Origin: an uncultured Gammaproteobacteria bacterium | GTDB lineage: Bacteria; Patescibacteriota; Patescibacteriia; Magasanikbacterales; GWA2-37-8 | NCBI GenBank assembly: GCA_964641245.1 | Contig: CAZXML010000002.1 | Span: 10,548-74,547, forward strand | Length of the DNA stretch: 64,000 bases | Direction: 5' to 3' | Part shown: positions 5,800-58,689 of the stretch, piece by piece | Numbering within the stretch: the stretch's first letter is position 1 | Layout of the letters: every line of letters begins with the position of its first letter | Position numbers and translations under genes: made by a program | The notes under the pieces: model-generated | Told to the model about the DNA's origin: nothing | Database searches by the model: none | Seen by the model: the letters and a program-made list of their open reading frames with translations, nothing else

Positions 5800-6468
5800 T
5801 TAAATTATCTGAAGTTGTCCCTGGCGTAAAATTTTTAAATTATCAATCACGCTCACAATGGTGGTGGGCGGATTTTGGGGTAATATTCCCCCATCTATTA
5901 GTATATCAGGTTTTACATTAATTTTCTTGGAGTCATAGATATCGCCAGCATCGGCCAAGTTGGCTGAAGTAGCTACCACCGGTCTGTCTAATTTTTCCGA
6001 TAAAAATTTTGCTATTGGGTGATTGGTAACACGGACGGCAATTGTATTGTTTGCGGCGACTACGCCGGCTGCCAGGCTGTCATTGCGAGGAAGCCGATTC
6101 GCATCGGCTGACGTGGCAATCCCATTGTTTGCACTACCATCCAATGGGATTGCTTCGTCGCTTGTAGCTCCTCGCAATGACAAATACTCGCCAACTATTG
6201 TAAGCGCCCCAGGCCAATACTTACTTGCCAAATCTTCCAACAAATCGTTCCACAACAAATATTTTTTTGCCATTTCAATCGTGGGCACAACAACCAAAAG
6301 AGGCTTATCGCTTTTTCGCCCCTTAATTTCAAAAATTTTATTTACCGCGTTTTGATCGGTCGCATCACAACCCAAACCATAGGAAGTTTCGGTGGGAAAA
6401 ACGATAACCTTTCCTTCCTTCAGATATTCAACGGCAGTTGATAATTGTTTAGTGGTTATTATTTTCAT
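5800..6468 (-). CDS. tsaC: L-threonylcarbamoyladenylate synthase TsaC/YrdC, with in-frame palindromic-element insertion
   Basis: VFPTETSYGLGCDA, KGRKSDKPLLV, PGALT motifs; ~35-aa insert SLRGATSDEAIPLDGSANNGIATSADANRLPRNDS encoded by repeat 6078-6182; upstream ATG at 6549 lies inside repeat 6477-6561. Confidence 0.8.
   Translation of the reverse strand: MKIITTKQLSTAVEYLKEGKVIVFPTETSYGLGCDATDQNAVNKIFEIKGRKSDKPLLVVVPTIEMAKKYLLWNDLLEDLASKYWPGALTIVGEYLSLRGATSDEAIPLDGSANNGIATSADANRLPRNDSLAAGVVAANNTIAVRVTNHPIAKFLSEKLDRPVVATSANLADAGDIYDSKKINVKPDILIDGGILPQNPPTTIVSVIDNLKILRQGQLQII
6078..6182. repeat. family C palindromic element (tgtcattgcgagg...ggcaatcccattg...gggattgcttcg...ctcgcaatgaca) inside tsaC
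   Basis: other copies 10416-10503, 21735-21823, 45966-46054; partial 17871-17900. Confidence 0.85.
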
Positions 6469-6476
6469 ACTTTGAT

Positions 6477-6561
6477 TGTCATCCTGAATGCAATGAAGGA
6501 TCTCTGTCCGTATCGTTTTGGACAGCCAGACAGAGATTCTTCGCTTCACTCAGAATGACAG
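6477..6561. repeat. family B palindromic element
   Basis: see 3812-3890. Confidence 0.85.
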
Positions 6562-6581
6562 TTAGAGAAACCAAAATTTTT

Positions 6582-8586: not shown

Positions 8587-8658
8587 ACGTGGTTAATTCT
8601 ACTCTTAATCTTTGTATTTTACAACAAAGGACGCCCTTTGTAAGGGGCGTCATTTTAT

Positions 8659-8726
8659 TGTCATCCTGAACTTGTTTCAGGATCTGTTTGTGTACCGTTA
8701 GATGCTGAAACAAGTTCAGCATGACA
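8659..8726. repeat. family A double-hairpin element (tgtcatcctgaacttgtttcaggatc ... gatgctgaaacaagttcagcatgaca)
   Basis: copies 7691-7737 (partial), 12690-12757, 14863-14941, 17799-17877, 26943-27079 (composite), 46687-46753, 56113-56243 (composite). Confidence 0.85.
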
Positions 8727-8735
8727 CTTTGAAGT

Positions 8736-10388
<1,653 letters not shown>

Positions 10389-11272: not shown

Positions 11273-12682
11273 TCAACTTTGCCTGTTTTGGTCAATAAAC
11301 CCAAGCCCAATAATAACCCACAAAAAAATTATTCCTGTGGACATACTGGCCAGCCAATGATCAAAAAGTCCGGCTACCAATAAAGCGGTTATTATGGGAA
11401 GAAATAAGAGATTGGTTTTATAGATTTTTATAAATAGATAAATGATAAATAATAAAAATAAAAATGCCGACAGAATACCAAACTCTACTATCGCTAACAA
11501 ATAAATATTATGAATCGGCTGATACTGCCAAGATGCCAACGTGGGATATTTTTTAAATGATGCGTAAGTATACGCGCCGGGGCCGATGCCAAAAATTGGA
11601 TTGGTTTGAATAAAAGACAGCGCCTCGGCGTACTGATCCTTTCTTTCGGAAATAGATTTTGCTTCCAGGCGGTTGTTTAGATTAAACCTGGCTGTAAATA
11701 CGGGATAAAAAATTATTAGCCAGAAAATAATTACCGCCAGAGCAAATAGGATTTGTTTGGTAAATTCTTTCAAGGCTGTCGTGGCATCGCGGCCTCCCTC
11801 CCCTTTTAGGGGAGGGGCGAGGGGTGGGGTATCCGTTCGGTTATCATTGTACGCCGAATACCCCTCTCTCTGTCTCTCCCCTAAAAGGGGAGAGAGCGAT
11901 TGATGATGGTGATGTTTAAAAAATATAATAGCAAACAGAGACGCCACGCCAACTGTCGCCGCCACCCACGCCCCGCGAGAAAAAGAAAGAAGCAATCCTG
12001 ATAAAATAAATAGCTGGCCCGCGCTGATTATTATTTTGCTCCGTCCCGATTCGGCTTTAAGATATAAAACCAAACCCAGCACAAATAAAACCGCCAAATA
12101 AATTCCCAACGAATTTGGCGAGCCAAAACTGCCATACGCCCGCAACCATCTTTGGTCGGCAAACTCTATTACGCTCGGACCCAAATTGTAAGCCTCCTGC
12201 CCGGCCATACCCAACCATTTGCTGGCCCAAACATTCTGATTTAAAAACTGCCAAATAGCCAGCACACCCTGCAAAATTCCACCCGCCCAAAGAGCAATTT
12301 GATATTTTGTCTTTTCATCCTGCCAAGCCAGAACGACCATTAAGGCCATTGCCTCCAGTAATTTAAAAATATAATTATACGAAACCCAAAAATTTTTACT
12401 TAACATCGTGGAAAAAAATACCGACATTAAAAACAGCATTAAAATTAAAATTGTTTGGTTCCTTTTTTCTTTTAGTCTTGTCCAAAAAGATTTATTAACA
12501 AAATGGTGGAAAAAAAACAAAAGTATAATCATCCACAGCAAAATTTCCGTACCATAAAGACTGGAGGTTCCGTACTCCCAAAATCCTTTATTTAATTCGC
12601 CGTATTGCCAAATATATCTGGTTTGCCATGGCAACAGAAACAGGAATAGCAACAATAACAAATTATATATTTTTTTCATCAT
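11273..12682 (-). CDS. O-antigen ligase (Wzy_C/WaaL)-like polytopic membrane protein with in-frame GC-rich element
   Basis: 469 aa, >10 TM helices, YGSFGSPNSLGIYL motif typical of O-antigen ligase family; residues ~255-300 (HHHHQSLSPLLGERQREG...PPLKGEGGRD) encoded by GC-rich palindrome 11786-11897. Confidence 0.6.
   Translation of the reverse strand: MMKKIYNLLLLLFLFLLPWQTRYIWQYGELNKGFWEYGTSSLYGTEILLWMIILLFFFHHFVNKSFWTRLKEKRNQTILILMLFLMSVFFSTMLSKNFWVSYNYIFKLLEAMALMVVLAWQDEKTKYQIALWAGGILQGVLAIWQFLNQNVWASKWLGMAGQEAYNLGPSVIEFADQRWLRAYGSFGSPNSLGIYLAVLFVLGLVLYLKAESGRSKIIISAGQLFILSGLLLSFSRGAWVAATVGVASLFAIIFFKHHHHQSLSPLLGERQREGYSAYNDNRTDTPPLAPPLKGEGGRDATTALKEFTKQILFALAVIIFWLIIFYPVFTARFNLNNRLEAKSISERKDQYAEALSFIQTNPIFGIGPGAYTYASFKKYPTLASWQYQPIHNIYLLAIVEFGILSAFLFLLFIIYLFIKIYKTNLLFLPIITALLVAGLFDHWLASMSTGIIFLWVIIGLGFIDQNRQS
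11786..11897. repeat. family E GC-rich palindromic element (in-frame in membrane protein gene)
   Basis: see 4519-4636. Confidence 0.8.
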
Positions 12683-12689
12683 ACTCTTG

Positions 12690-12757
12690 TGTCATCCTGA
12701 ACTTGTTTCAGGATCTATTTTATTTTCTTGAGATGCTGAAACAAGTTCAGCATGACA
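12690..12757. repeat. family A element
   Basis: see 8659-8726. Confidence 0.85.
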
Positions 12758-13738
12758 GACCGCATCGCAAAGTTTTTTCCACTTCTCCAGATAGTCAATT
12801 CTGGCATCTTTTTCATGAAATTTTAAAACACCATCGGATATTACCACGCCCTTGTCTTCACCCTGATGAATCATATTACCGGAAGATTTTGCCGATTTTG
12901 CTTCGGCAAAATCGAGCATCCTCGATCTCGATGCGGATCGAGATCGGGACATTTTGGCCAATTGTATTTTTTTCGCCTGTGAGTTGATTAAGTCGCCATA
13001 ACTCCCCTCCCACATTTTTTCCCAAATTTTTTTCCACAATTTGCCAAACCGCGATTCGGGAATTTTTAATAAGTATGATGATGTTTGTTTTGGTTCCGCG
13101 TTAGGCAAATATGTTTTAGTCCACAGATTGACGTGTAAAAATTTAAGATAATAATCCTCCGGATCAAAAATCGGCAGCATCTGATTTAGCCAATAGGCAA
13201 AATGCACATCATCATCCGCTACCCGGAAATTTGCCAGATCCAGATTATAAACAGTCACATAAAAACTTAAACAAACTTTGTTTTTAATATGTTTCCCGGA
13301 GCGCCTTAACCGGAATAATTCCAATAAAAAAGTAACCAGCAAACGGGTAATCCAAATTCTGTTTTTTTCCGTGACAATAAAAAAATCAATATCGCTGTCT
13401 TCGTTGGCCTGTTCCGCGCCGGTGGAGTTGCATACAAAAACAGCCCGCAAAAACGGGACTGACTTAATAATTTTGGCCGCCCGGCGGGCGATCTTTAATT
13501 TTTGTTCCGAGATTAAAAGTTTACGCCGGCGTTCCTCCACAATTGCCTCGCGTCCGGGCAAAAAATAATAACCGTATTTAGAATTTAAATTTAAAGCCGG
13601 AAGAGTGTTTAAAAATTCCGAATAACCGATTGCAGGGGGTAACCAGAGCCATGAAAATAATTCCTCTTTGATTAAAGGATAATCCGCCAAATCAAAATAC
13701 GCCAGGGTTTTGATTATTGAATCGCGAAGTAATTGCAT
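12692..13738 (-). CDS. hypothetical protein with nucleotidyltransferase-fold-like motif
   Basis: 348 aa; CNSTGAEQANEDSDIDFFIV resembles hG[GS]...DhD NTase motif; contains in-frame family G repeat (12908-12953) and C-terminus reads into family A repeat. Confidence 0.35.
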   Translation of the reverse strand: MQLLRDSIIKTLAYFDLADYPLIKEELFSWLWLPPAIGYSEFLNTLPALNLNSKYGYYFLPGREAIVEERRRKLLISEQKLKIARRAAKIIKSVPFLRAVFVCNSTGAEQANEDSDIDFFIVTEKNRIWITRLLVTFLLELFRLRRSGKHIKNKVCLSFYVTVYNLDLANFRVADDDVHFAYWLNQMLPIFDPEDYYLKFLHVNLWTKTYLPNAEPKQTSSYLLKIPESRFGKLWKKIWEKMWEGSYGDLINSQAKKIQLAKMSRSRSASRSRMLDFAEAKSAKSSGNMIHQGEDKGVVISDGVLKFHEKDARIDYLEKWKKLCDAVCHAELVSASQENKIDPETSSG

Positions 13739-14946: not shown

Positions 14947-16161
14947 TTACTCCTCTTTTTTTTCCTCTTCTTCAACTATCGTTTCAGTTTCAGGTTTTAC
15001 CTCGTCGCTAGATAAAACTTGTTTTCCACCTTGTTCTACCACGTTTATTTTCCAGCCGGTAAGCTGGGCTGCCAAACGCACGTTCTGTCCGTTGCGGCCG
15101 ATGGCTAAAGAAAATTGATCCGGACCAACGCTGACTTCGGCCACTTTGTTTGCTTCATCTAATTTGACACCCAAAACTTTGGCTGGTGATAAAGCGTGAG
15201 AAATATATTCTCTGGCGTCTTCACTAAACTGAATAATATCAATTTTTTCTCCGCCTAATTCTTCTATGATAGTATTTATACGGCTGCCTTTTTGGCCAAT
15301 GCAGGAACCAATCGGATCTATGGCTTCATCGGCGGTAAATACCGCCACTTTGGAACGGAAACCAGGTTCGCGGGCAATGCCTTTTATTTCAATTAAGCCG
15401 TCGTTAATTTCCGGAATTTCCTGCTTGAAAACTTCACGGACCATACCTACATCACTGCGTGATAAAAGTATTTCCGGACCGCGCGGAGACATTTGCACAG
15501 CTAGCAATAAAAACTTCATGCGGGCGCCGGGGCGATAATGGTCGCGGCTGTTTTGCTGATCGGCCAATAATATGCCGGTGACTTTTCCAAAGTCCACCAA
15601 CACTTTGCGGGCTTCCGCGCGCTGAATAGTGCCCATCATTAATTGTCCTTCTTGTCCTTTGAAGTCGTTGAAAACAATACCTCGTTCGGCTTCGCGGATT
15701 TTTTGAATAATAACCTGCTTGGCGGTTTGCGCGGCCATGCGGCCAAATTCGCTGGGGATGTCCAAAGGAATTTCCATTACCTCGCCCGCTTTAACTTTCT
15801 TATCAATCTCTTTGGCGGAACTGATCATCAATTCCAATTTTGGATTAAAATGAGGCAAATCAGCCGTTTCTTCTTCGGTTAATTCACGTCCTTCTTCCTT
15901 GGCTTTTTCACGTCTCTTGGTCATCTCTTCCTGGGCCGCTTCCAGATCTTCCTCGGCAATATCTTTCACCACGGTTTTAATATCCCAGGCTTTCATATCG
16001 CCGGTTTCCGGAGAAAACTTTACCTTAATATTTTGCTGTTTGTTGCCAAAATCCTTGCGGTAAGCGGCAGCCAAAGCAAATTCAATCGCTTCCATTACGG
16101 ATTCGTAGGGAAGATTTTTTTCGTCGCACAGAAATTGTATTGCTTTTGTAATTTCGGACAT
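14947..16161 (-). CDS. nusA: transcription termination/antitermination factor NusA
   Basis: N-terminal NusA domain, S1 and two KH regions (GxxG: IGQKGSRI, IGRNGQNV), acidic C-terminus. Confidence 0.92.
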   Translation of the reverse strand: MSEITKAIQFLCDEKNLPYESVMEAIEFALAAAYRKDFGNKQQNIKVKFSPETGDMKAWDIKTVVKDIAEEDLEAAQEEMTKRREKAKEEGRELTEEETADLPHFNPKLELMISSAKEIDKKVKAGEVMEIPLDIPSEFGRMAAQTAKQVIIQKIREAERGIVFNDFKGQEGQLMMGTIQRAEARKVLVDFGKVTGILLADQQNSRDHYRPGARMKFLLLAVQMSPRGPEILLSRSDVGMVREVFKQEIPEINDGLIEIKGIAREPGFRSKVAVFTADEAIDPIGSCIGQKGSRINTIIEELGGEKIDIIQFSEDAREYISHALSPAKVLGVKLDEANKVAEVSVGPDQFSLAIGRNGQNVRLAAQLTGWKINVVEQGGKQVLSSDEVKPETETIVEEEEKKEE

Positions 16162-16309
16162 ATGTTTTTTGTCATCCTGAACGTAGTGAAGGATATCTGT
16201 CTTAATCGCCGAACGGACAGAGATTCTTCGCTTTGCTCAGAATGACAGTTAAAAAAATTAGTTAAAAAAAAGCAGCTTCATTATTGAAGCGCTTTACATC
16301 AATAGAATA

Positions 16310-17786: not shown

Positions 17787-17798
17787 ACTTTTAATATT

Positions 17799-17877
17799 GT
17801 CATCCTGAATTTATTTCAGGATCTGCTTGTTATTTGTTATAGATGCTGAAACAAGTTCAGCATGACAGTGTTCCTTA
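17799..17877. repeat. family A element
   Basis: see 8659-8726. Confidence 0.85.
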
Positions 17878-19376
17878 TGCCTGCTCCTCGCAATGACAAA
17901 AACCAATAACAGATACATTCCCAACATCGCCCAAAATGGTATCTGCAGATTAACCGCGCTCCAATTTTTATTTCCAAACCAATCCACGATAATTATAACA
18001 TAGTTTAAACCCAAACCCGCCACCCAGGCAATTGCCTGCCCCAAAGGAAAAAATATAAAACTAAAAATTAAGGATATAAAACCAAACAGCATTAGCCACG
18101 GCACCAGCCATAAAATTAAAATATTAACCAACGGAGCCACAACGGAAAACCTTTCAAATTGATATATTACAAGCGGCATGGTGGCAATGATGGCCGAAAT
18201 TGTGGTGATAAAAACCTGAATCGTGGCCACTAAAATTGGACTTTCCGGTTTTAATTTTTTATCAACAAGGCTCTGAATAACCGGCGAAAGATAAACCAAT
18301 CCCAATGTGGACAAAAATGAAAGCTGGAATCCGGCATCCCAAACCAGTAAATAAGGATTAAGCAAAAGCATAATTACCGCCGCATATATCAACACCCTGC
18401 CTATTGCGGATAACCTACCTGTGTGCTGGGAAATCAGAATAATTACAGCCATTACCCCCGCCCGCACCACCGAGGCCGTGGCGCCGGTAAAAAATACAAA
18501 GGACAAAATTAAAAATATTAAAAACCAAAAGGACTGGCGGCGAAAAAATCCCAGATAAATTAAAATAATATTTAACGCCACCGCCAAAATACTGACATTG
18601 TACCCGGACACCGCCATAATATGGCTGATTCCGGTACGGCTAAAATTATCCACCAACTCCTGCGGCAAACCGCTGCGGCTGCCATAGAGCAAGCCGGCCA
18701 TTAAACTGCTGTACGGTTCCGGCCACAAACGGGCCATCCGCGATTTTATATTATTTTTTAATTGCAACATGATTTTTATAAAAATATTACCATCATTTTC
18801 CCCCAATGAATTTATGGTTGGATTGCCGCAGACCGACCATACTCCCTGTTTGGCCAAGTATTTTTTATAATTAAAATTGGAATCGGCGAAATTTTCCGGC
18901 TCCAGCAAAGAACAGGTTATTGCCAATTTTTCTCCGTAAGCATATTCCGGATAAATTCTGGTTTTTATAATTACTTTACCGGCAATTTGTTTGCCTTCTT
19001 CTAAACCGGTCACACTCACAATATACCGCGCGTCACTTACGCCAATATCCGGCTCCGCTGAAACCCAGCCTTGCAAAGTTACTTTTTGTCCGTTATAAAA
19101 TTCTATTCTTGATGAATTGTGATTGGGAATACTAATAAAAAATCTCAATCCGCCGAAAATAAAAAATAACAAACATAACAAAAAAAATTTATATAACTTA
19201 TTGTCCCAAAAAATGATTATTAAAAATAAAAAGATAAATGACAGGAGATAAACAGATAACGCCAATTTGCCGTTCGCGACAAAAGAAAACGCGCTAACGC
19301 CGGCAATAAAACAAAAACAAAACGCGATAAACGTTTTGCTTTTTGAATTTATTATTTTGGCTAGCGCCTCCGGCAT
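17811..19376 (-). CDS. ComEC/Rec2 family competence membrane protein (DUF4131 + competence domain, no lactamase domain)
   Basis: GLLYGSRSGLPQELVDNFSRTGISHIMAVSGYNVSIL signature; ATG 19376 preferred to TTG 19391; C-terminus reads into repeats at 17799-17900. Confidence 0.8.
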   Translation of the reverse strand: MPEALAKIINSKSKTFIAFCFCFIAGVSAFSFVANGKLALSVYLLSFIFLFLIIIFWDNKLYKFFLLCLLFFIFGGLRFFISIPNHNSSRIEFYNGQKVTLQGWVSAEPDIGVSDARYIVSVTGLEEGKQIAGKVIIKTRIYPEYAYGEKLAITCSLLEPENFADSNFNYKKYLAKQGVWSVCGNPTINSLGENDGNIFIKIMLQLKNNIKSRMARLWPEPYSSLMAGLLYGSRSGLPQELVDNFSRTGISHIMAVSGYNVSILAVALNIILIYLGFFRRQSFWFLIFLILSFVFFTGATASVVRAGVMAVIILISQHTGRLSAIGRVLIYAAVIMLLLNPYLLVWDAGFQLSFLSTLGLVYLSPVIQSLVDKKLKPESPILVATIQVFITTISAIIATMPLVIYQFERFSVVAPLVNILILWLVPWLMLFGFISLIFSFIFFPLGQAIAWVAGLGLNYVIIIVDWFGNKNWSAVNLQIPFWAMLGMYLLLVFVIARSRHKEHCHAELVSASITNNKQILK

Positions 19377-19380
19377 AATT

Positions 19381-22300
19381 CTATACAACAATACTCACCA
19401 ATTTTCCTTTTACGTAAATTATTTTCTTCGGTTCTTTGCCGTCCAGCCATTTTTGGACTTTCTCACCGGCCAGCGCTAATTTTTTAATTTCCTCTTCCCC
19501 CATTTCCGCCGCCACTTTAATTTCATCACGGACCTTGCCGTTAATTTGCACGGCCAAAGTCATGGTGCTTTCTTTGGTCAGTTCCAAATTATATTCCGGC
19601 CATGGTTCGTATACCAGTGTTTTATTATTACCCAAAGTATTCCACAGTTCTTCGCACATGTGTGGGGCAAAGGGAGAAAGGATTTTGAGGAGTGAGGAGT
19701 AGTGAGTAAGGAGTATTGATTCCTGCTTGGACATTTCGTTTACCAATTCCATCATTTTAGCAATGGCGGTATTAAATCGCATGGCTTCGATATCATCTCC
19801 AACTTTTTGAATTGTTTGATGGAGCAGTGTAGTCAACTTGTCATTCTGAGGTGTAACCGAAGAATCCCTTTTGTCCGACAGAGAGGGATCCTTCACTTTG
19901 TTCAGGATGACAACGTTGCTGTCCGACAGTTTATCTTGCAACAGCCACACTCTATCCAAAAATCTTTTAACCCCAACTACTCCATTCGTATCCCACTCCA
20001 CCGCCTGATCAAACGGACCCATAAACATTATATATGTACGCAAAGCATCCGCGCCGAATTTTTCTACCATTTCGTCCGGATTGACAACGTTGCCTTTGGA
20101 CTTGGACATTTTTTCTCCGCCTTTGGACAGAATCATTCCGTGCGCCGTGCGTTTGGCGTATGGTTCGGAGTGCGGCACCAAACCAATGTCGTGCAAAAAG
20201 ATATTCCAAAAACGGGAATACAATAAATGCAAAACCACATGTTCCATTCCCCCGTTATACCAATCCACCGGCATCCAGTATTTTAATAATTCTTGATTCC
20301 AATAATTTTGATTTTTGATTTTTGATTTTTGACCTCCGAGCGCGTATGCAAGGTAATACCAGCTGGACCCGGCCCAGTTCGGCATGGTGTCGGTTTCTCG
20401 CTTGGCCGGACCGCCACACTTTGGGCATTTGGTATTAACCCATTTTTCCATTGCGGCCAGCGGCGATTCGCCCGTATCGGTAGGCTGATACTTTTTTACC
20501 TTTGGCAATTCTAAAGGCAATTCACTTTCCGGCAATGGAACCCAACCGCAATCCGGACAATTTACTAAAGGAATCGGTTCGCCCCAGTAGCGTTGGCGGG
20601 AAAATACCCAGTCGCGTAATTTGAATTGCACTTGCGGTTTACCGCCGACAAATTCAATAATCTCCGATTTTGCTTTTTTGGAATCCATTCCGCTAAACTG
20701 TCCGGAATTAACTAACTCGCCGGATTCGGTAAATACTTGCGTTCCGAAAATCTTATTAATATCTGTCGATTCTTTTAGAACCTGATCTTCCGGCAACAAT
20801 TCCCGTAGCGCGTCATACCCGCAATAACCCCAAGCGCAACCAATTAACTTTTTACGGTCCATAAAATTTTCCAACTCATAGACATCGGCCTTGGAGTCCG
20901 TAAAATAATAGACATCGCTCACTTTAATTCCCCAGTCTTTGCAAACCATTTCTATTTTTTCTTCTTTGGAATGATGGTCTTCAAAAGAAAGAACATGCGT
21001 CGGATTTAGACCGGTCTGCTGACTTCTCTCCCGCATATAAAGTCCGGACCCGGCGGAAATCACCGCAATTTTTGTATTTGGTATATTTTTTACCAGGCCG
21101 ACAAATTCATCAAACAGCGGAAAATTAATTTTTGCCATATGCTCGCCAAATTTTTGTGTCCATTCCAGATTTTTTTTCACTTCTTCTTCGGATAAATTAT
21201 GCCCTCTCGTATGATTAGGCTTCCTGCTAAAATACTGGTTAATTGACTCAACCGCTTCTTCTCTGTTTTTTACATCGCCCATTTTTAGTCTGGTCACAAT
21301 TGAAGCCTCGTACGTATCTCCAAGCACTCCATCAAAATCAAAAATTAAATACTTAGGTTTTTGTTCTTTGGAACGCACTACTTCCACAATCGGCAAACCA
21401 AATTTTTTGGCAAACTCATAATCACGCTCATCGTGCGCCGGCACGCCCATAATGGCGCCCGTGCCCACTTCGCCCAAAACATAATTTGTTATCCAAACCG
21501 GAACTTCTTTTTTTGTGGCCGGATTTACCGCTTTAACTCCGGCGTCCACTCCGGTTTTGGCCATTTCTTCTCTGGTGGTGGCGGCCGCGCGCTCGGCAAT
21601 TGTTTCTTCAATATATTTTTTAACTTCTTCACTTGCTTCCCAACCGCCATCCAGCCATTTTTTTGCCAACTCGGCCGAAATAGCGACAAAGGTCGCGCCA
21701 AAAATTGTGTCGGGACGGGTGGTAAAGACTTCGATGTCATTGCGAGGAGCCAAAGGCGACGCGGCAATCCCATTGTTAGTACCACCAGTACTTTGGGATT
21801 GCTTCGCTTTGCTCGCAATGACAAAATGAATAAGCGCGCCTTCCGAACGTCCAATCCAATTTTCCTGCTGTACCCGCGCGCGTTCTATATAGTCTACATT
21901 TTTGAGTCCGGCCAAAAGTTTATCGGCGTATTTGGTAATGGCCAGCATCCATTGTTCTTTATTTCTTTTTTCTACCGGTGTACCACAGCGTTCGCAGCAG
22001 CCGTTAACCACCTCTTCGTTGGCCAAACCAATTTTATCTTTGGGACACCAATTTATAGGCTGATTTTTTTTGTATGCCAGGCCATGTTTAAAAAATTGTA
22101 AAAAAAGCCACTGCGTCCATTTATAATATTTGGGATTAGAAGTATCTACAGTCCTGGACCAATCAAAACTATAACCCAACATTTTTAACTGGCGCGTAAA
22201 ATTGGCAATATTTTTCTTGGTGACTTCCGCCGGTTGCTTGCCGGTTTTAATAGCGTAATTTTCCGTAGGCAAACCAAAAGAATCAAAACCAATCGGAAAC

Positions 22301-22521
22301 AAAACATTTTTGCCGTCCATTCTTTTTTTTCGGGAAATTACATCCATGGCCGTAAAAGGCCGCGGATGGCCCACGTGCAAACCCTCGCCACTAGGGTAAG
22401 GAAATTCTATCAGCGAATAAAACTTTTCCTTGTCTTTATCTTCTGTAACTTCAAAAGTCTTATGGCTCTCCCAATACTTTTGCCATTTCTTTTCTATTAA
22501 CTTAGGATTATACTTTTTCAT
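19381..22521 (-). CDS. leuS: leucine--tRNA ligase with three in-frame insertions (family C element, HAD-like domain, family B element)
   Basis: HVGH (HIGH), editing-domain VFTTRPDT and GTGAIMGVPAHDERDYEFA, KMSKSKGN; 1046 aa vs typical 800-880. Confidence 0.93.
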   Translation of the reverse strand: MKKYNPKLIEKKWQKYWESHKTFEVTEDKDKEKFYSLIEFPYPSGEGLHVGHPRPFTAMDVISRKKRMDGKNVLFPIGFDSFGLPTENYAIKTGKQPAEVTKKNIANFTRQLKMLGYSFDWSRTVDTSNPKYYKWTQWLFLQFFKHGLAYKKNQPINWCPKDKIGLANEEVVNGCCERCGTPVEKRNKEQWMLAITKYADKLLAGLKNVDYIERARVQQENWIGRSEGALIHFVIASKAKQSQSTGGTNNGIAASPLAPRNDIEVFTTRPDTIFGATFVAISAELAKKWLDGGWEASEEVKKYIEETIAERAAATTREEMAKTGVDAGVKAVNPATKKEVPVWITNYVLGEVGTGAIMGVPAHDERDYEFAKKFGLPIVEVVRSKEQKPKYLIFDFDGVLGDTYEASIVTRLKMGDVKNREEAVESINQYFSRKPNHTRGHNLSEEEVKKNLEWTQKFGEHMAKINFPLFDEFVGLVKNIPNTKIAVISAGSGLYMRERSQQTGLNPTHVLSFEDHHSKEEKIEMVCKDWGIKVSDVYYFTDSKADVYELENFMDRKKLIGCAWGYCGYDALRELLPEDQVLKESTDINKIFGTQVFTESGELVNSGQFSGMDSKKAKSEIIEFVGGKPQVQFKLRDWVFSRQRYWGEPIPLVNCPDCGWVPLPESELPLELPKVKKYQPTDTGESPLAAMEKWVNTKCPKCGGPAKRETDTMPNWAGSSWYYLAYALGGQKSKIKNQNYWNQELLKYWMPVDWYNGGMEHVVLHLLYSRFWNIFLHDIGLVPHSEPYAKRTAHGMILSKGGEKMSKSKGNVVNPDEMVEKFGADALRTYIMFMGPFDQAVEWDTNGVVGVKRFLDRVWLLQDKLSDSNVVILNKVKDPSLSDKRDSSVTPQNDKLTTLLHQTIQKVGDDIEAMRFNTAIAKMMELVNEMSKQESILLTHYSSLLKILSPFAPHMCEELWNTLGNNKTLVYEPWPEYNLELTKESTMTLAVQINGKVRDEIKVAAEMGEEEIKKLALAGEKVQKWLDGKEPKKIIYVKGKLVSIVV
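20737..21375 (-). other. HAD-superfamily hydrolase-like domain inserted in-frame in LeuS (residues ~383-595)
   Basis: motif I LIFDFDGVLGDT, motif II-like IAVISAGSG, motif IV-like FTDSKADV; flanked by canonical LeuS segments FAKKFGLPI (end of CP1) and KLRDWVFSRQRYWGEPIP. Confidence 0.6.
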
Positions 22522-33180: not shown

Positions 33181-33418
33181 AGAACTGATACTGGGTTATT
33201 TCCGCCGCTGGTTTAACGTCGCTAAAAATTGACCGCTATTTTTGGCTGTCATCCTGAACGCAGTGAAGGATCTCTATCCGTCGTTTGTTCGTGAATTGGA
33301 CAGAGATTCTTCTCCGTCCTATGGCGGATCAGAATGACAATTGAGGGAACTCACAATGAGATTGTAGCGCAGATATTATATCAAAATTATTGACATTTGC
33401 CTAAAATACCGTTATCCT

Positions 33419-34681: not shown

Positions 34682-34806
34682 TCAAAACGTTTAATTGTCA
34701 TTCTGAGCGTAGCGACGAATCTCTGTCCGGTTGGCCAAATAACGACTGACAGAGATCCTTCATTTCATTCAGGATGACATTTGGCGACACTTCCGTGTAA
34801 GTTAAT

Positions 34807-37353: not shown

Positions 37354-40065
37354 TTAAATTAACGGACTTGTATATTTTCTATACAACTCAAACAAAAAAA
37401 CCATTCTCTCCGCGTCCGATTTTAACACTTTTTTCCCATAAGCAGAGTCCACCGACCTGTCCAAAGCCTGATGTGCTTTTACAAGATCGGCTGGCATTGT
37501 CAGCGGATCATACAAATCAGCCAACGTGCTGTTTGGGTATTTTGTTCGCACATCCAACACCGTTTGCGCCGCTTCTTCGACCGTTTTCATTTTTTCAACA
37601 CTTGGCTTGTCCGGCCATGGAAAATTGTTATAAACAATATCTTTGGAATACCGAAAATCTGATTTCAACCGCCCACATACATGTCGCACCCAAGTCATAT
37701 GCATTTCGCTTTCCAGCACGCCGAAGTGATATGGTGTGGCGTTGGGAATTGCCATACACGTATCACTTATGATAAATTCATTACCAAAAAAACCCATGGG
37801 AATATATTTGCGATTTTCCGAAGAAACACGCGGAACAACAATAGCTGATTCGGGATTATTTCGGTCACGAAACAGCGAAGGTGTGCTTGCAAATTTCTGT
37901 GTCGAAGCAGCCTTGCTTGCTATGCGAAATTGTCTGACTTTTTCGATCCTTTCCATTACCGCTGGCATTTTCTGTAAATCATCTGGACTAGCATCAGTTA
38001 GCCACAAACACCACCGCTTTCCGCCATTTAAAAATTCTTTTGCACTAATAAGTGGCCTTATAAATTTTTCTGATTTTGGTTCTATTTGTAGTAATTCTAT
38101 TTTTTCTTTATCAGACAACAACAAATTTCCGCCATCCAGCGGCATATTGCCAAAATTCATTCTTGGAACATCACAGATCGTATTCTGTCTCGCTTCAATA
38201 ACAATATCCTCTGCCGGTAGCAAATACGGGTTGATATTTTTAACCACAATTTCGTGCGGCTCACCCTTTATGCTTTCATATTCGTATAATAACTTTTTTT
38301 CGGCATCATAATTAGCAAAACCAATAATTACGCAATAGACCGCCGCTTTTCCTCTTGCCTCATTGCTCCACCTGAAGGTCTGGTGTGCAAAATGAATTTT
38401 AATGCCGTATTTATTTAGAAGTTCGTTCCAAATAATACCAACCTGCTCACCTTGAGTAATAGAATTAGTAGAAACAAAAGCGCATTTAATTAGCGTATTT
38501 TGAATGTATTGCGCGGCTTTCCCATACCAACCAGAAACATAATCTAAAACCCCCACACCTTTGAGATTTCCGAAAACGGAAATAATATCCTTACGTTGCT
38601 CCTCAGCCATCAACTTAGAACCGATAAATGGCGGATTACCAAGAATATACGATAACTCGCTTTTTGGCAGAATTTCTTCCCAATTCTTCTGTAAAGCGTT
38701 ACCTATAAAAACAGTCGCGCCGTGAGAAAGCGGCAAATCAATAATATTTTTTCCAAAAGTCCGTCCGGCCAATTCATTCATTTGATGATCCATAAGCCAC
38801 ATAGCTGTTTCGGCAATGCGCGCGGGAAATTCCTCTATTTCAATGCCATAAAATTGTTCCGGTTTTATTTTTATCCATTCTTTAACTTCAAGCGGAAGCA
38901 TTACAGCCGTACCTTGCTGTCTTTTAAGAATTTCCAATTCTAATAAACGGAGTTCTCGAAATGCAATAATTAAAAAATTTCCACAACCACAAGCAGGGTC
39001 AAGAAATTTTAATTTTGCTATTTTTTCATGTAAATTTTTGAGCTTTTGTAAATTTTTTCCACAAGCATCTAATTCAAACGCCAACTCATCAAGAAAAAGT
39101 GGCTTGATAAGTTTTAAAATATTTTTTTCAGAAGTATAATGCGCGCCCAAGTGTCGCCTGGCATCTTTATCCATTACCGACTGAAACAACGACCCAAAAA
39201 TTGCCGGCGATATCGCTGTCCAATTAAAGGCGCAAGTATCCAGAAGGCTTTGGCGCATTTTCGAGGTAAAAGCAGGAACAGAGATATTTTCTGAAAAGAG
39301 TCCGCCGTTTACATACTCAAATTGGGACAACTCTTCATCCAAAGTATTCTGTCGTTTTTCCTTTGGCGTATTTAGAACTTGAAATAACATCCCAAGATGC
39401 ATGCCTAAATCATTTCCATCAACATTTGTTCGTGTTTCAATATAGCGCCGAAATTGATTTGGTGAAAAAATACGCGCATCCTCCGCAAACAGACAAAAAA
39501 GTATTCTAACAAGAAGCACATTTAATTCGTGTCCAAAATAACCAGCGGAAGCTGTTGCGTCATAAAGTTTCCCCATTAACTCGGCGGCCTTTATATTCAC
39601 TTCATCCTCTTCCTTGTATTCTTGCTTTTTATACCCGGCAATAAAACCAAAAAGGTGCACTTTTTTTACTAGGTCTTTAAGCTCAAATTCCACCTCTTCC
39701 CCTTCTTCGAGATCATAAAGTTTGATGCGGCCAAAATCAGAAACAAGGATATATTTTGGTAATTCTTTTTCGGTTAGACCGGGAAAATAATCCATCGCCT
39801 GATTGTATGCTTTGTTCAAATCCTTCCCAAGGGATTTATGCTCAACAATAAGCACACCTGGCCAAAACAAATCTATATACCCCCTGTTTCCACTCCTCTT
39901 TTCAACTTCATGTTCAAAACTCGCAAGCCGCCTTCTTGTTAACCCAAAGATATTAAAAAAACCATCCCAAAAAGTTTTTGCTTCGGCATCTTCGGATTTC
40001 TCGTTTTCCCATTCTTTAGAAAATTCAATAGCTCTGGTTTTAATTTCATTCCAAGAGAGTGGCAT
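37354..40065 (-). CDS. MmeI-family Type IIG restriction-modification enzyme (endonuclease + N6-adenine methyltransferase + specificity in one chain)
   Basis: 903 aa; N-terminus MPLSWNEIKTRAIEFSKEWENE...FEHEVEK...GYIDLFWPGVLIVEHKSLGKDLNKAYNQAMDYF resembles MmeI N-terminal nuclease domain; SAM motif and NPPF (GNPPFIGSK). Confidence 0.8.
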   Translation of the reverse strand: MPLSWNEIKTRAIEFSKEWENEKSEDAEAKTFWDGFFNIFGLTRRRLASFEHEVEKRSGNRGYIDLFWPGVLIVEHKSLGKDLNKAYNQAMDYFPGLTEKELPKYILVSDFGRIKLYDLEEGEEVEFELKDLVKKVHLFGFIAGYKKQEYKEEDEVNIKAAELMGKLYDATASAGYFGHELNVLLVRILFCLFAEDARIFSPNQFRRYIETRTNVDGNDLGMHLGMLFQVLNTPKEKRQNTLDEELSQFEYVNGGLFSENISVPAFTSKMRQSLLDTCAFNWTAISPAIFGSLFQSVMDKDARRHLGAHYTSEKNILKLIKPLFLDELAFELDACGKNLQKLKNLHEKIAKLKFLDPACGCGNFLIIAFRELRLLELEILKRQQGTAVMLPLEVKEWIKIKPEQFYGIEIEEFPARIAETAMWLMDHQMNELAGRTFGKNIIDLPLSHGATVFIGNALQKNWEEILPKSELSYILGNPPFIGSKLMAEEQRKDIISVFGNLKGVGVLDYVSGWYGKAAQYIQNTLIKCAFVSTNSITQGEQVGIIWNELLNKYGIKIHFAHQTFRWSNEARGKAAVYCVIIGFANYDAEKKLLYEYESIKGEPHEIVVKNINPYLLPAEDIVIEARQNTICDVPRMNFGNMPLDGGNLLLSDKEKIELLQIEPKSEKFIRPLISAKEFLNGGKRWCLWLTDASPDDLQKMPAVMERIEKVRQFRIASKAASTQKFASTPSLFRDRNNPESAIVVPRVSSENRKYIPMGFFGNEFIISDTCMAIPNATPYHFGVLESEMHMTWVRHVCGRLKSDFRYSKDIVYNNFPWPDKPSVEKMKTVEEAAQTVLDVRTKYPNSTLADLYDPLTMPADLVKAHQALDRSVDSAYGKKVLKSDAERMVFLFELYRKYTSPLI

Positions 40066-40184
40066 AGTCTTTATTAATCAAATCAATTTTAAATCATGAT
40101 TCTTTATTCTAAACGCTCTAAAAACTATCTTAATTTTACCCCCTCCACACCATTTTTACAAGCCAAAAAGTAAACCCCCAAACC

Positions 40185-40285
40185 AACCATCAAAAAACAC
40201 CCTTTCGGGTGTTTTTTTCGCGGCCTATTAAGTCTAAGCCCTCTCGGTCACTTGAACCTGTACAGCAATATAGCCTACAACAATG
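40185..40285. repeat. ~100-bp direct repeat copy A (contains terminator hairpin acaccctttcgggtgt)
   Basis: ~85% identical to 44505-44610; ends in degenerate copy of tRNA-Glu 3' flank (tagcctaca vs tagtccca). Confidence 0.7.
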
Positions 40286-40364
40286 ATACTTGGAACACTT
40301 TGGTCGAAGAACTTAAGTTATTAATCCATACCGTAAAAAAAACTAGTAACGCAGATAACTAAAT

Positions 40365-42656: not shown

Positions 42657-42669
42657 ATGCGCAAATAAA

Positions 42670-44472: not shown

Positions 44473-44504
44473 TTGACTAATACAAAGTCAAAACAAGCAA
44501 AGCA

Positions 44505-44610
44505 CCGCCCAAACCAAACACCAAAAAACACCCTTTCGGATGTCTTTTGCGTGATCTGCCAAGTCCAACCCCTCTCGGTCACTTGAACCTGTACAGCAGT
44601 GTAGTCCCAA
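44505..44610. repeat. ~100-bp direct repeat copy B abutting tRNA-Glu 3' end
   Basis: cccaaaccaaacaccaaaaaacaccctttcggatgtcttttgcg...ccctctcggtcacttgaacctgtacagcag shared with copy A. Confidence 0.7.
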
Positions 44611-44673
44611 CGGGAATTGAACCCGTATTTTCGCCTTGAAAGGGCAATGTCCTAACCATTAGACGATGAGACC
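44602..44673 (-). tRNA. tRNA-Glu (anticodon TTC)
   Basis: cloverleaf by hand: acceptor GGTCTCA/TGGGACT (2 G-U), D-arm TCGTCTAATGGTTAGGACA, anticodon arm TTGCC-CTTTCAA-GGCGA, T-arm ACGGG-TTCAATT-CCCGT; closely resembles bacterial tRNA-Glu. Confidence 0.8.
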
Positions 44674-45585: not shown

Positions 45586-46683
45586 ATGTTAATTCTCGGC
45601 ATTGAATCTTCCTGCGACGATACTTCTGTGGCCTTACTAGATATTTCCGAAAAAGGCGCGGCTATTTTATTTGAAAAAACCGCTTCGCAAATTGAAATCC
45701 ATAAAAAATACGGCGGTGTGGTGCCGGAAATTGCCGGCCGGATGCACGCGGAAAAAATTGTGCCGCTTATAGACGCGGCGCTAAATGGAAGAATGATTAA
45801 GAAATTAGGAAATAAAGAAATTAAACCAGATGTGATTGCCGTAACCGCCGGACCGGGATTAATTACCGGGCTTTTAGTAGGGGTAGAAGCGGCGCGCGCT
45901 TTATCGTATGCATGGGATATTCCACTAATAAGAACAAACCACATAGAAGGACACGTCTATTCTGTTGTCATTGCGAGCCACAGCGAAGCAATCCCAAATA
46001 CTGATAGTTCTGACAATGGGATTGCCGCGTCGCTTAAAGCTCCTCGCAATGACATACAGTTCCCGGCCTTATGCCTAATCGTCAGCGGCGGGCATACGGA
46101 ATTAATTTTGATGAAAAACCACGGAAAGTATAAATTACTGGGCGCGACCAAAGACGACGCGGCGGGAGAATGTTTTGATAAGGCGGCAAAATTACTGGGG
46201 CTTCCCTATCCGGGCGGACCGCAAATTTCTAAACTGTCCGAAACCGGAAACCCGGCCGCGATAAAATTCCCCCGGCCGATGATGGCCGATGAAAATTATT
46301 TATTTAGTTTCGCCGGATTAAAAACTTCCGCTTTGTATTGGTTGCGCGACAATAAATTGAAAAATATTAACGACTTTTGCGCCAGTTTTGAACAGGCAAT
46401 TGTAGATGTTTTGGTGGCCAAAACTATTAAAGCCTCCATTCAATACAAACCAAAAACTATTATTTTAGCCGGCGGGGTTAGCGCCAACAAAAAACTTCGC
46501 CAAACATTAGGCGAAGTCATAGGCGCTAAATTTCCCGAAGTGAATTTTATGGCCCCGCAGACAAAGTATTCCATGGACAACGCCGCCATGATTGCCATGG
46601 CCGGATATTATCACGCCTTAAAAAAAGATTTTACTTCCTGGAAAAAAATCCAAGCCGACCCGAACTGGGAACTTGCTGAATAG
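45586..46683 (+). CDS. tsaD: tRNA N6-adenosine threonylcarbamoyltransferase TsaD, with in-frame palindromic-element insertion
   Basis: LGIESSCDDTSVAL, HxEGH metal site (NHIEGH), GGVSAN; ~30-aa insert VIASHSEAIPNTDSSDNGIAASLKAPRNDI from repeat 45966-46054. Confidence 0.9.
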   Translation: MLILGIESSCDDTSVALLDISEKGAAILFEKTASQIEIHKKYGGVVPEIAGRMHAEKIVPLIDAALNGRMIKKLGNKEIKPDVIAVTAGPGLITGLLVGVEAARALSYAWDIPLIRTNHIEGHVYSVVIASHSEAIPNTDSSDNGIAASLKAPRNDIQFPALCLIVSGGHTELILMKNHGKYKLLGATKDDAAGECFDKAAKLLGLPYPGGPQISKLSETGNPAAIKFPRPMMADENYLFSFAGLKTSALYWLRDNKLKNINDFCASFEQAIVDVLVAKTIKASIQYKPKTIILAGGVSANKKLRQTLGEVIGAKFPEVNFMAPQTKYSMDNAAMIAMAGYYHALKKDFTSWKKIQADPNWELAE

Positions 46684-46686
46684 GAT

Positions 46687-46753
46687 TGTCATGCTGAATT
46701 TATTTCAGCATCTCTGTCCACCGATTAGATCCTGAAACTAGTTCAGGATGACA
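46687..46753. repeat. family A element overlapping dnaE stop codon
   Basis: see 8659-8726. Confidence 0.85.
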
Positions 46754-58680: not shown

Positions 58681-58689
58681 CTAGCGAGT

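What the first reader, a model, noticed from the sequence alone, without database searches (positions are those of the whole stretch)
20737..21375. HAD-phosphatase-like domain inserted in-frame into leucyl-tRNA synthetase
LeuS here is 1046 aa. Beyond two short repeat-derived inserts, residues ~383-595 form a module with HAD-superfamily motifs (LIFDFDGVLGDT, IAVISAGSG, FTDSKADV). It sits exactly between the end of the CP1 editing domain (FAKKFGLPI) and the resumption of the catalytic core (KLRDWVFSRQRYWGEPIP). There is no intein signature (no C/S...HN-C/S/T junctions, no LAGLIDADG). This is a domain fusion I do not recognise for LeuS. It could give a phosphatase or other HAD-type activity, or a moonlighting function, to an essential synthetase.
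Basis: partly seen in the sequence, partly recalled or inferred. Interest (0 to 1): 0.72.

Follow-up and report, generated by a model that had tools for sequence, protein, structure and literature searches.

The report
Swappable phosphatase module inside leucyl-tRNA synthetase
An essential protein-synthesis enzyme of an uncultured 'candidate phyla radiation' bacterium carries a complete, apparently working phosphatase inserted into a surface loop. In related bacteria the same loops hold interchangeable enzyme modules that differ even between nearly identical strains, a pattern I could not find described in the papers searched.

Summary

It replaces an 11-residue loop inside the CP1 editing domain, not the CP1/core boundary.

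The wider context is the main result.
- This small CPR-specific HAD family sits either as a roughly 205-aa gene immediately upstream of leuS or embedded in LeuRS at five or more different loops.
- It also occurs inside EngA, AlaRS, a class II synthetase, PNPase and CTP synthase, and fused to NUDIX, serine-hydrolase and Ham1 domains.
- Near-clonal strains (99-100% DNA identity) differ only by razor-sharp swaps of these cassettes, HAD for NUDIX and one hydrolase allele for another.

Most likely it is an autonomous small-molecule phosphatase, probably acting on nucleotides, riding in a permissive LeuRS loop as a recombining cassette. The substrate is unknown. Seven literature searches found no description.

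The parts
19381..22521 (-). leuS ORF, 1046 aa, bacterial-type leucyl-tRNA synthetase hosting the module
   Evidence: HIGH (HVGH) is at 22366-22377 and KMSKS at 20098-20112. 100% identical to P0121.
20737..21369 (-). Inserted HAD-IA (C1-cap) phosphatase module with its short linkers, residues 385-595. The HMM envelope of the free-standing family is residues 388-593, window 20743-21360.
21325..21342 (-). HAD motif I, FDFDGV (residues 394-399): Asp395 nucleophile and Asp397 acid/base
   Evidence: Invariant D8, D10, G11, V12 in family alignment A1. Conserved in all embedded copies.
21046..21063 (-). HAD motif II, VISAGS (residues 487-492)
20956..20976 (-). HAD motif III region, HHSKEEK (residues 516-522, Lys519), a family-specific signature
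20875..20904 (-). HAD motif IV, FTDSKADVYE (residues 540-549; Asp542, Asp546)
21370..21864 (-). CP1 editing domain, N-terminal part (residues 220-384). Includes TTRPDT 267-272 and GTGAIMGVPAHDERD 353-367.
   Evidence: PF13603 profile positions 1-149. Motifs located.
20650..20736 (-). CP1 editing domain, C-terminal tail that resumes after the module (residues 596-624, VFTESGELVNSGQFSG...)
   Evidence: PF13603 matches contiguously, positions 1-183 of 185, once residues 385-595 are removed. Aligns to T. thermophilus LeuRS from residue 376.
21733..21822 (-). In-frame hairpin-repeat insert at the start of CP1 (residues 234-263). Relatives carry alpha/beta-hydrolase or NUDIX modules in this same loop.
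   Evidence: Repeat families D17, I4, I13. Sequence. L001, P0210 and P0240 carry modules here.
19858..19914 (-). Second in-frame hairpin-repeat insert (residues 870-888), between the catalytic core and the anticodon-binding domain
   Evidence: Repeat families D4, D18, I24. Coordinates.

Best explanation
What it is (shown). A complete HAD-superfamily subfamily-IA phosphatase with a C1 helical cap is inserted in frame into an 11-residue surface loop of the CP1 editing domain. The LeuRS is otherwise intact. All four catalytic motifs are kept and the module is under purifying selection, so the protein is most likely bifunctional: synthetase plus Mg-dependent phosphomonoesterase.

Where it comes from (shown). 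It belongs to a small CPR-specific HAD family. Its members occur in four settings:
- as roughly 205-aa genes directly upstream of leuS;
- embedded at five or more different LeuRS loops;
- embedded in other essential nucleotide-using proteins (EngA, AlaRS, a class II synthetase, PNPase, CTP synthase);
- fused to NUDIX, Ser_hydrolase and Ham1 domains.
The LeuRS loops behave as cassette sites. Near-clonal strains differ only by exact replacement of HAD by NUDIX, or of one alpha/beta-hydrolase allele by another, and the two sites reassort independently.

How it works (inferred). The module acts as an autonomous small-molecule phosphatase, because a C1 cap encloses the active site. It most likely dephosphorylates nucleoside monophosphates or a similar product of its NUDIX/Ham1 partners, in nucleotide house-cleaning or salvage. 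LeuRS supplies a tolerant loop, constitutive expression, and highly conserved flanks. Those flanks let the cassette be exchanged by homologous recombination. LeuRS probably does not supply the substrate.
For: Identity and integrity:
- HAD_2 above the Pfam cut-off.
- Motifs I-IV invariant across 65 family members and in all 36 embedded copies.
- dN/dS 0.09-0.13 for the module against 0.02-0.22 for other LeuRS regions.
- LeuRS motifs are intact, and the editing-domain profile is contiguous without the insert.

Family and context:
- An exhaustive search of 1.84 billion representatives gives only 206 hits at E<=1e-3.
- 13 of 15 informative metagenome loci have the HAD inside leuS or 40-390 nt upstream of it.
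- Sites A, C and D, an N-terminal position, and a site near profile position 626-630 are all used.
- Other hosts are EngA, PNPase, PyrG, AlaRS and a class II aaRS.
- P0258 is a stand-alone Ham1-NUDIX-ABH-HAD fusion.

Cassette behaviour:
- P0143 and P0163 have 99.7% identical cores but HAD versus NUDIX at site A, and hydrolase alleles 44% identical at site B.
- P0144 combines P0143's HAD with P0163's hydrolase allele.
- Their loci are 99-100% identical in DNA over about 10 kb, with sharp cassette boundaries.
- Architecture is patchy on the LeuRS core tree.
- HAD divergence and core divergence correlate only weakly, r = 0.33.
Against: - No enzymatic data exist. NCBIfam assigns no subfamily. A PDB sequence-profile search gives nothing. 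Fold matches are generic at 12-19% identity, so the substrate is a guess.
- The nucleotide house-cleaning idea rests mainly on fusion partners (NUDIX, Ham1) and on the nucleotide-using nature of the hosts.
- The strong preference for leuS, both as upstream operon neighbour and through many independent insertion sites, could instead mean a real functional link to LeuRS chemistry.
- Deep allelic divergence in near-clonal genomes is also what balancing selection in a conflict system would produce.
- The full-length AF2 model is poor (pLDDT 63.6, pTM 0.37). Nothing can be said about where the module sits relative to the LeuRS active sites.
- The trees are neighbour-joining without support values.
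Confidence: 0.6

Rival explanations
1. The HAD module is an accessory of LeuRS chemistry. Tethered to the synthetase, it would remove a product or by-product of aminoacylation, such as PPi, AMP, Ap4A-derived nucleotides or non-cognate aminoacyl-adenylate. This would pull the reaction forward or add a proofreading step.
For: - Free-standing family members lie directly upstream of leuS on the same strand, in a NUDIX-HAD-leuS operon.
- The family has been inserted at five or more different LeuRS positions, as if tethering itself is selected.
- Other hosts include three further aminoacyl-tRNA synthetases, and one free copy overlaps hisS by 4 nt.
Against: - Sister LeuRS lineages and near-clonal strains lack the module or carry NUDIX in its place, so LeuRS does not need it.
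- The same family sits in EngA, PNPase and CTP synthase, which share no chemistry with aminoacylation beyond using nucleotides.
- There is no specific similarity to BT2127 (13% identity).
- Insertion geometry is not conserved.
Confidence: 0.2
2. The cassettes are conflict modules. Variable hydrolases displayed on LeuRS would neutralise nucleotide-like inhibitors, toxins or phage factors aimed at LeuRS, tRNA or the nucleotide pool. They would be kept polymorphic by frequency-dependent selection.
For: - Old, deeply divergent alleles (44% aa identity) and different enzyme classes alternate at the same site in genomes 99-100% identical elsewhere, and they reassort. This pattern is typical of balanced polymorphisms at conflict loci.
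- An extra MBL-fold gene is present or absent right next to leuS in the same strain pair.
- The module repertoire is open-ended: HAD, two NUDIX types, alpha/beta-hydrolase, SAM methyltransferase and two unknown modules.
Against: - No PADLOC defence model matches the HAD, the hydrolase, the unknown module or the MBL gene. The NUDIX module gets only a weak hit to candidate PDC-S07.
- dN/dS of the HAD is low, with no sign of positive selection.
- No toxin or partner gene was found.
- Presence/absence polymorphism of accessory genes is common without conflict.
Confidence: 0.12
3. It is an artefact or a dead element: a chimeric assembly, a pseudogene, or an intein-like element removed from the mature protein.
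For: - The window comes from an uncultured organism, with no reads available here.
- One related locus (L001) has three frame disruptions in its leuS.
Against: - The ORF is uninterrupted.
- The identical protein occurs on other contigs, and at least 10 independent assemblies share the architecture.
- The module shows purifying selection in frame.
- There is no Cys/Ser/Thr at the insert start, no His-Asn plus Cys/Ser/Thr at its end, and no Hint or LAGLIDADG hit. The HAD profile accounts for the whole insert.
Confidence: 0.03

Closest known systems
Canonical bacterial LeuRS (T. thermophilus 1H3N/2V0C; E. coli 4AQ7 family)
   Same: Class Ia core with HIGH and KMSKS, a CP1 editing domain with the Thr-rich motif and conserved Asp, two Zn knuckles, and anticodon-binding and C-terminal domains. 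Alignment runs on both sides of the insert.
   Different: A 211-residue enzyme module replaces the 11-residue loop 365-375 of the editing domain. Relatives carry further enzyme modules in the Zn knuckles and at the start of CP1.
C1-capped HAD-IA phosphatases (COG0546 phosphoglycolate-phosphatase-like, e.g. 2HSZ, 2AH5, 2HI0; AlnB; phosphoserine phosphatase; BT2127 pyrophosphatase)
   Same: Rossmannoid core plus helical C1 cap. Motifs I-IV with the DxD arrangement of phosphotransferases.
   Different: Only 12-19% identity. No PDB hit by sequence profile and no NCBIfam subfamily. Family-specific signatures are KPxHTR, EDHHSKEEK and GCAWGYCG. It is embedded in another enzyme.
Inteins in essential genes
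   Same: In-frame insertions in highly conserved essential proteins, with patchy distribution among close relatives. Conserved flanks plausibly favour horizontal spread by recombination.
   Different: No splicing motifs and no homing endonuclease. The insert is a conserved metabolic-type enzyme that stays in the protein. Insertion is in surface loops rather than active-site motifs.
Domain accretion in aminoacyl-tRNA synthetases (eukaryotic WHEP/GST/EMAPII additions, INS/YbaK-type editing modules, split Aquifex LeuRS)
   Same: Synthetases tolerate and recruit extra domains, and CP1 itself is an ancient insertion (own knowledge).
   Different: Known additions are mostly terminal, are RNA- or protein-binding or editing domains, and are fixed in large clades. 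Here, unrelated catalytic hydrolases are inserted internally and vary between strains.
Allelic cassette loci maintained by recombination (e.g. hsdS specificity cassettes, pilin or capsule loci)
   Same: Sharp-edged, deeply divergent alternative segments in otherwise near-identical genomes, with independent reassortment of neighbouring cassettes.
   Different: The cassettes are whole enzyme domains inside the reading frame of an essential housekeeping enzyme. No invertase, silent copy or dedicated recombinase was seen.

Membership tests
HAD superfamily, phosphatase type (subfamily I, C1 cap) | Motif I DxDx(T/V), with nucleophile Asp and Asp+2 acid/base | tested here: met
   FDFDGV at residues 394-399. 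D8, D10, G11 and V12 are invariant in 65 family members.
HAD superfamily, phosphatase type (subfamily I, C1 cap) | Motif II Ser/Thr, motif III Lys, and motif IV acidic pair | tested here: met
   VISAGS 487-492, Lys519 in HHSKEEK, and Asp542/Asp546 in FTDSKADV. S102, K132, D155 and D159 are invariant in alignment A1. Conserved in all 36 embedded copies.
HAD superfamily, phosphatase type (subfamily I, C1 cap) | Rossmannoid fold with a helical cap inserted between motifs I and II | tested here: met
HAD superfamily, phosphatase type (subfamily I, C1 cap) | Pfam family score above the curated cut-off | tested here: met
   PF13419 HAD_2 scores 33.4 bits in the full protein and 36.8 bits for the insert alone, against a cut-off of 23.8.
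HAD superfamily, phosphatase type (subfamily I, C1 cap) | Mg-dependent phosphoester hydrolysis; substrate identity | not testable with these tools
   No subfamily assignment. Needs an enzyme assay.
Bacterial-type leucyl-tRNA synthetase | Class I HIGH and KMSKS signatures with a Rossmann core | tested here: met
   HVGH 49-52 and KMSKS 804-808. PF00133 and PF09334 hit.
Bacterial-type leucyl-tRNA synthetase | CP1 editing domain with the Thr-rich motif and conserved Asp | tested here: met
   PF13603 at 186 bits. TTRPDT 267-272 and ...PAHDERD 361-367. The profile is contiguous once the insert is removed.
Bacterial-type leucyl-tRNA synthetase | Anticodon-binding helical domain and C-terminal domain; homology to solved LeuRS | tested here: met
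   PF08264 at 85 bits. E 5e-71 to T. thermophilus LeuRS over the fragment tested.
Intein | Cys/Ser/Thr as first residue of the insert, and His-Asn followed by Cys/Ser/Thr at its end | tested here: not met
   The insert starts ...RS|KEQKPKYLIF and ends ...KIFGTQ|VFTE. Linkers vary among homologues.
Intein | Hint fold, with or without a homing endonuclease domain | tested here: not met
   No Hint or LAGLIDADG family in Pfam scans. The HAD profile covers 203 of the 211 inserted residues.
BT2127-type HAD inorganic pyrophosphatase | Specific similarity, including the cap residues that select PPi | tested here: inconclusive
Known anti-phage defence proteins (PADLOC) | Match to a defence-system protein model | tested here: not met
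   No hit for the HAD module.

The most novel reading that the evidence does not exclude
Parcubacterial essential genes, leuS above all, may serve as scaffolds for a previously unrecognised kind of mobile unit. These would be whole enzyme domains (HAD, NUDIX, alpha/beta-hydrolase, methyltransferase and others) that live inside permissive loops of conserved housekeeping proteins. Strains would exchange them as sharp-edged intragenic cassettes, using the host gene's conserved sequence as the recombination anchor, in effect a domain-level accessory genome. A sharper version adds that the polymorphism is maintained by conflict, for example against inhibitors of translation or of the nucleotide pool.
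Probability: 0.3. Interest if true: 0.9.

Novelty: new variant of a known kind. Interest (0 to 1): 0.78.

Why it matters
- It adds a catalytic phosphatase to the short list of things found inside an aminoacyl-tRNA synthetase, and shows that the CP1 editing domain and the Zn knuckles tolerate 130-230-residue enzyme insertions.
- It exposes a natural, ongoing experiment in domain insertion. The same module is seen as a neighbouring gene, as an insert at several loops, and as alternative cassettes in near-identical strains. The steps by which inserted-domain architectures arise can therefore be studied directly.
- LeuRS is a standard phylogenetic marker. Cassette-bearing and recombining leuS genes can distort alignments and annotation; these proteins are labelled 'alpha/beta fold hydrolase', 'HAD superfamily hydrolase' or 'hypothetical' in public records.
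- It gives a handle on an uncharacterised CPR-specific hydrolase set (HAD, NUDIX, Ser_hydrolase, Ham1) in organisms that depend on salvaged nucleotides.

Tried and rejected
- The first homologue search with the insert alone returned almost only free-standing 205-aa proteins. That suggested a unique fusion. It was an artefact of the word index, because the full-length query showed dozens of LeuRS carrying the module.
The peptide patterns chosen from a single sequence picked generic LeuRS from Firmicutes and others, so there is no taxonomic census.
- A sequence-profile search of the PDB with the HAD family gave no hit.
- NCBIfam gave no subfamily for the HAD, NUDIX or hydrolase modules.
- PADLOC gave nothing for the HAD.
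- The full-length AlphaFold model was poor (pLDDT 63.6, pTM 0.37), probably because the alignment was shallow and closely related. Only the HAD part (pLDDT 89-95) and CP1 were confident, so domain placement could not be assessed.
- No repeat or hairpin element flanks the HAD insert in the window, and no shared sequence motif was seen at cassette boundaries. No dedicated insertion mechanism can be named.
- The 'LeuRS-exclusive partner' idea was rejected once EngA, PNPase, PyrG and AlaRS hosts turned up.
- Intein, assembly-error and pseudogene readings were rejected (see rival explanations).
- Seven literature searches found no description. The library lacks most subscription journals.
Full report
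**1. The observation**

The minus-strand ORF 19381-22521 encodes a 1046-aa protein with every LeuRS hallmark. Pfam finds tRNA-synt_1, the LeuRS editing domain PF13603 at 186 bits, and Anticodon_1. HVGH is at residues 49-52, KMSKS at 804-808, and the editing motifs TTRPDT and GTGAIMGVPAHDERD are present.

Inside it, residues 392-547 match Pfam HAD_2 at 33.4 bits against a curated cut-off of 23.8. The excised segment alone scores 36.8 bits.

Phmmer against solved structures aligns the protein to T. thermophilus LeuRS (1H3N/2V0C) up to residue 364 (FGLPIKKVIER). The alignment resumes at residue 376 (AYEEPGIMVNSG). The extra segment is therefore residues 385-595, window 20737-21369, and it replaces an 11-residue loop. 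With those residues removed in silico, the editing-domain profile matches as one stretch, positions 1-183 of 185. The module lies inside CP1, about 29-38 residues before CP1 rejoins the catalytic core. It is not at the CP1/core boundary.

**2. Is it real and functional?**

- The identical protein is on two other public contigs.
- Proteins 68-82% identical over full length, with the same architecture, come from at least ten independent assemblies.
- In the two closest relatives the synteny IF2 - thioredoxin - leuS(HAD) - comEC is the same as in the window.
- Nei-Gojobori dN/dS for the module is 0.09-0.13. CP1 gives 0.10-0.22 and the rest of LeuRS 0.02-0.12. Synonymous sites are near saturation, so these are rough values, but the module is clearly under purifying selection in this frame.
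- A profile built from free-standing relatives matches positions 2/3-205 of 205 in all 36 LeuRS-embedded copies examined. A whole protein is embedded, not a fragment.
- The catalytic motifs (FDFDGV, SxGS, HHSKEEK, FTDxxxDvyEL) are invariant or nearly so in both embedded and free copies.
- AlphaFold2 with a 65-sequence alignment gives pLDDT 96.9 and pTM 0.92.
- No sequence-profile hit in the PDB and no NCBIfam subfamily.
- There is no intein signature. The insert begins KEQKPKY and ends KIFGTQ|V, there are no Hint or LAGLIDADG hits, and the HAD profile accounts for essentially the whole insert.

**3. The family and its genomic habits**

An exhaustive phmmer search of 1.84 billion representative proteins finds only 206 hits at E<=1e-3, and 62 at E<=1e-30. 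This is a small, distinct family. Named members are all from CPR/Patescibacteria: Kaiserbacteria, Magasanikbacteria, Taylorbacteria and Paceibacterota.

Free-standing members of about 205 aa are 45-59% identical to the window's module. Their context is striking:
- NUDIX(143 aa)-HAD-leuS in tandem (L006).
- HAD followed 40 nt later by a leuS that carries a NUDIX insert (L008).
- In a motif-based scan of metagenome contigs, 13 of 15 loci with enough flank have the HAD inside leuS or 40-390 nt upstream of it, on the same strand.
- One copy overlaps hisS by 4 nt.

**4. A modular system in LeuRS**

I aligned the 120 LeuRS most similar to the window's protein to a plain 769-aa relative. This shows five recurrent insertion sites.

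| Site | Location | Modules found |
|---|---|---|
| A | The window's CP1 loop | HAD in 25 (two with NUDIX+HAD in tandem), NUDIX in 48, a SAM methyltransferase, two other modules |
| B | First Zn knuckle after WGEPIP | Ser_hydrolase-type alpha/beta-hydrolase in 37 |
| C | Inside CPxC...KRETDTMPNW | HAD in 10 |
| D | Near DKEFA | HAD once, and an unknown ~183-aa module |
| E | Start of CP1 | NUDIX, or alpha/beta-hydrolase in L001 |

The window itself has only a hairpin-repeat insert at site E. Further positions, N-terminal and near profile position 626-630, appear in more distant members. The NUDIX box and the GxSxG nucleophile elbow are intact in the modules inspected. Only about 35 of the 120 proteins are plain.

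**5. Cassette behaviour**

Architecture is patchy on a tree of the LeuRS core.
- P0143 (HAD at A, hydrolase at B) and P0163 (NUDIX at A, hydrolase at B) have cores 99.7% identical over 746 positions. Their site-B hydrolases are only 44% identical.
- P0144 carries P0143's HAD (99.5% identical) together with P0163's hydrolase allele (100% identical). The two sites therefore reassort.
- The DNA of the two loci (L125, L126), from different samples, is 99-100% identical over about 10 kb. There are exactly three exceptions: the site-A cassette, the site-B cassette, and an extra 640-bp MBL-fold gene between leuS and comEC. The 200 bp of core between the two cassettes is 99% identical.
- The cassette boundaries are sharp to the nucleotide.
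- Other pairs show presence versus absence: P0186/P0206 with 98.5% identical cores, and P0140/P0161 with 95.6%.
- Among site-A HAD carriers, module divergence and core divergence correlate weakly, r = 0.33.
- No repeat, hairpin or shared motif marks the boundaries.

The simplest mechanism is homologous recombination through the conserved LeuRS sequence. That is an inference.

**6. Not only LeuRS**

Long proteins among the family's representatives include several other hosts:
- EngA/Der GTPases carrying one to three HAD domains (11 or more clusters)
- PNPase (2)
- CTP synthase (1)
- a class II Asp/Lys/Asn-type synthetase with an added HD domain (1)
- AlaRS (3)

Host-less fusions also occur: HAD-NUDIX, HAD-hydrolase, and P0258, which is Ham1(ITPase)-NUDIX-hydrolase-HAD and is encoded as a stand-alone gene. 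In a family tree the window's module falls in a LeuRS-only clade. EngA copies form other clades, and PNPase, PyrG and aaRS copies are scattered among free-standing ones. This implies several independent captures (neighbour-joining, no support values).

**7. What it most likely does**

Shown: an intact LeuRS with an intact HAD phosphatase that has been conserved by selection.

Established knowledge (own): a C1 cap closes over the active site, and such HADs act on small phosphorylated metabolites rather than macromolecules. The DxD arrangement marks phosphotransferases rather than dehalogenases.

Inferred: LeuRS works without the module in sister lineages and near-clonal strains. The module can be swapped for a NUDIX. 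The same family lodges in unrelated nucleotide-using enzymes. For these reasons the module is probably autonomous rather than part of LeuRS catalysis. Its partners (NUDIX, Ham1) are classic nucleotide house-cleaning pyrophosphatases. A plausible role is dephosphorylation of their NMP products or a related salvage step, in organisms that rely on imported nucleotides.

I put about 0.9 on the structural and evolutionary description and about 0.35 on this functional assignment, 0.6 overall.

Rivals:
- A real coupling to aminoacylation chemistry, 0.2. It is favoured by the leuS operon link and the multiple synthetase hosts.
- A conflict or immunity role, 0.12. It is favoured by the deep allelic polymorphism, but PADLOC gives no support for it.
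- Artefact or intein, 0.03.

**8. Comparison with what is known, and novelty**

The host is a bona fide bacterial LeuRS. The guest is a bona fide, though divergent, HAD-IA phosphatase. Neither fails a membership test.

What is unusual is the combination and its dynamics: internal insertion of unrelated catalytic domains at several loops of an essential synthetase, varying between strains. Inteins share the habitat (conserved essential genes, patchy distribution) but not the mechanism. Synthetase domain accretion is known, but it is typically terminal, non-catalytic and fixed in large clades.

Such proteins have been in public databases since at least the 2016 groundwater MAGs. P0132 is UniProt A0A1F6P9D2, auto-named 'Leucine--tRNA ligase'. 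Seven full-text searches of the held library found no paper describing them. The library lacks most subscription journals, so absence is not proof.

I rate it a new variant of a known kind (domain insertion or fusion in a synthetase). There is a 0.3 chance that the cassette system is something categorically new.

**9. Limits**

- No enzymology and no reads.
- No whole-genome census, because the one genome-collection scan was misspent.
- The full-length structure model was too poor to place the module relative to the active sites.
- The trees lack support values.
- The 120-protein sample is biased toward relatives of the query.

Noticed in passing
window 40177-44604 (genes 40365-42656 and 42670-44472), next to tRNA-Glu 44601-44673: A 97-nt direct repeat (85% identical; 40177-40273 and 44508-44604) brackets two defence-type genes: an nSTAND3 NTPase with an Mrr nuclease domain, and an OLD-family AAA/TOPRIM nuclease. 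The second copy abuts the 3' end of tRNA-Glu. It looks like a small defence island integrated beside the tRNA. An MmeI-type restriction-modification enzyme (37354-40065) lies just outside it.
   Followed up: partly
window-wide, e.g. 6467-6564, 8649-8743, 12680-12774, 16160-16257, 17795-17884, 33237-33312, 34686-34796, 46677-46770, 50307-50404: There are dozens of copies of short hairpin repeats (TGTCATCCTGAAC...GTTCAGGATGACA and TGTCATTGCGAG...CTCGCAATGACA types), mostly between genes. Some are read through in frame: two in leuS, and one at the end of comEC (...HCHAELVSAS...).
   Followed up: partly
L125 versus L126, between leuS and comEC (L126 7455-8090): Two otherwise 99-100% identical strains differ by a 640-bp insertion carrying a 211-aa MBL-fold (Lactamase_B) gene immediately downstream of leuS. 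It has only a faint precomputed Anti-Pycsar Apyc1 hit and no PADLOC hit.
   Followed up: partly
L001 5641-9535: A related leuS carries three modules: alpha/beta-hydrolase at the start of CP1, NUDIX at the window's site, and HAD in the Zn knuckle. Its frame is broken three times, once in an A-run. This is either a decaying gene or homopolymer errors in the assembly.
   Followed up: partly
L002 6970-8618: A free-standing HAD of this family overlaps the stop of a short hisS (344 aa, apparently lacking the anticodon-binding domain) by 4 nt, which suggests translational coupling.
   Followed up: no
Proteins P0241, P0246, P0272, P0295, P0302, P0303, P0351 (EngA); P0264, P0307 (PNPase); P0288 (PyrG); P0291 (class II aaRS + HD); P0362, P0346, P0278 (AlaRS): The same HAD family is embedded in several other essential proteins. 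EngA/Der can carry up to three HAD-type domains.
   Followed up: partly
Proteins P0178, P0227, P0236 (site D, ~183 aa) and P0178 (site A, ~129 aa): Two further inserted modules in LeuRS have no Pfam family. The site-D module has only a sub-threshold NTP_transf_5 hit at 16.9 bits.
   Followed up: no
window 46738-50352 (dnaE): The HHH_6 domain of DNA polymerase III alpha spans 129 residues against a 90-position profile. This suggests another short in-frame insertion, possibly repeat-derived, since repeats map at 47735-47786.
   Followed up: no
window 58678-58800 and 62446-62568: A 123-nt direct repeat at 85% identity, 3.8 kb apart, of unknown nature.
   Followed up: no
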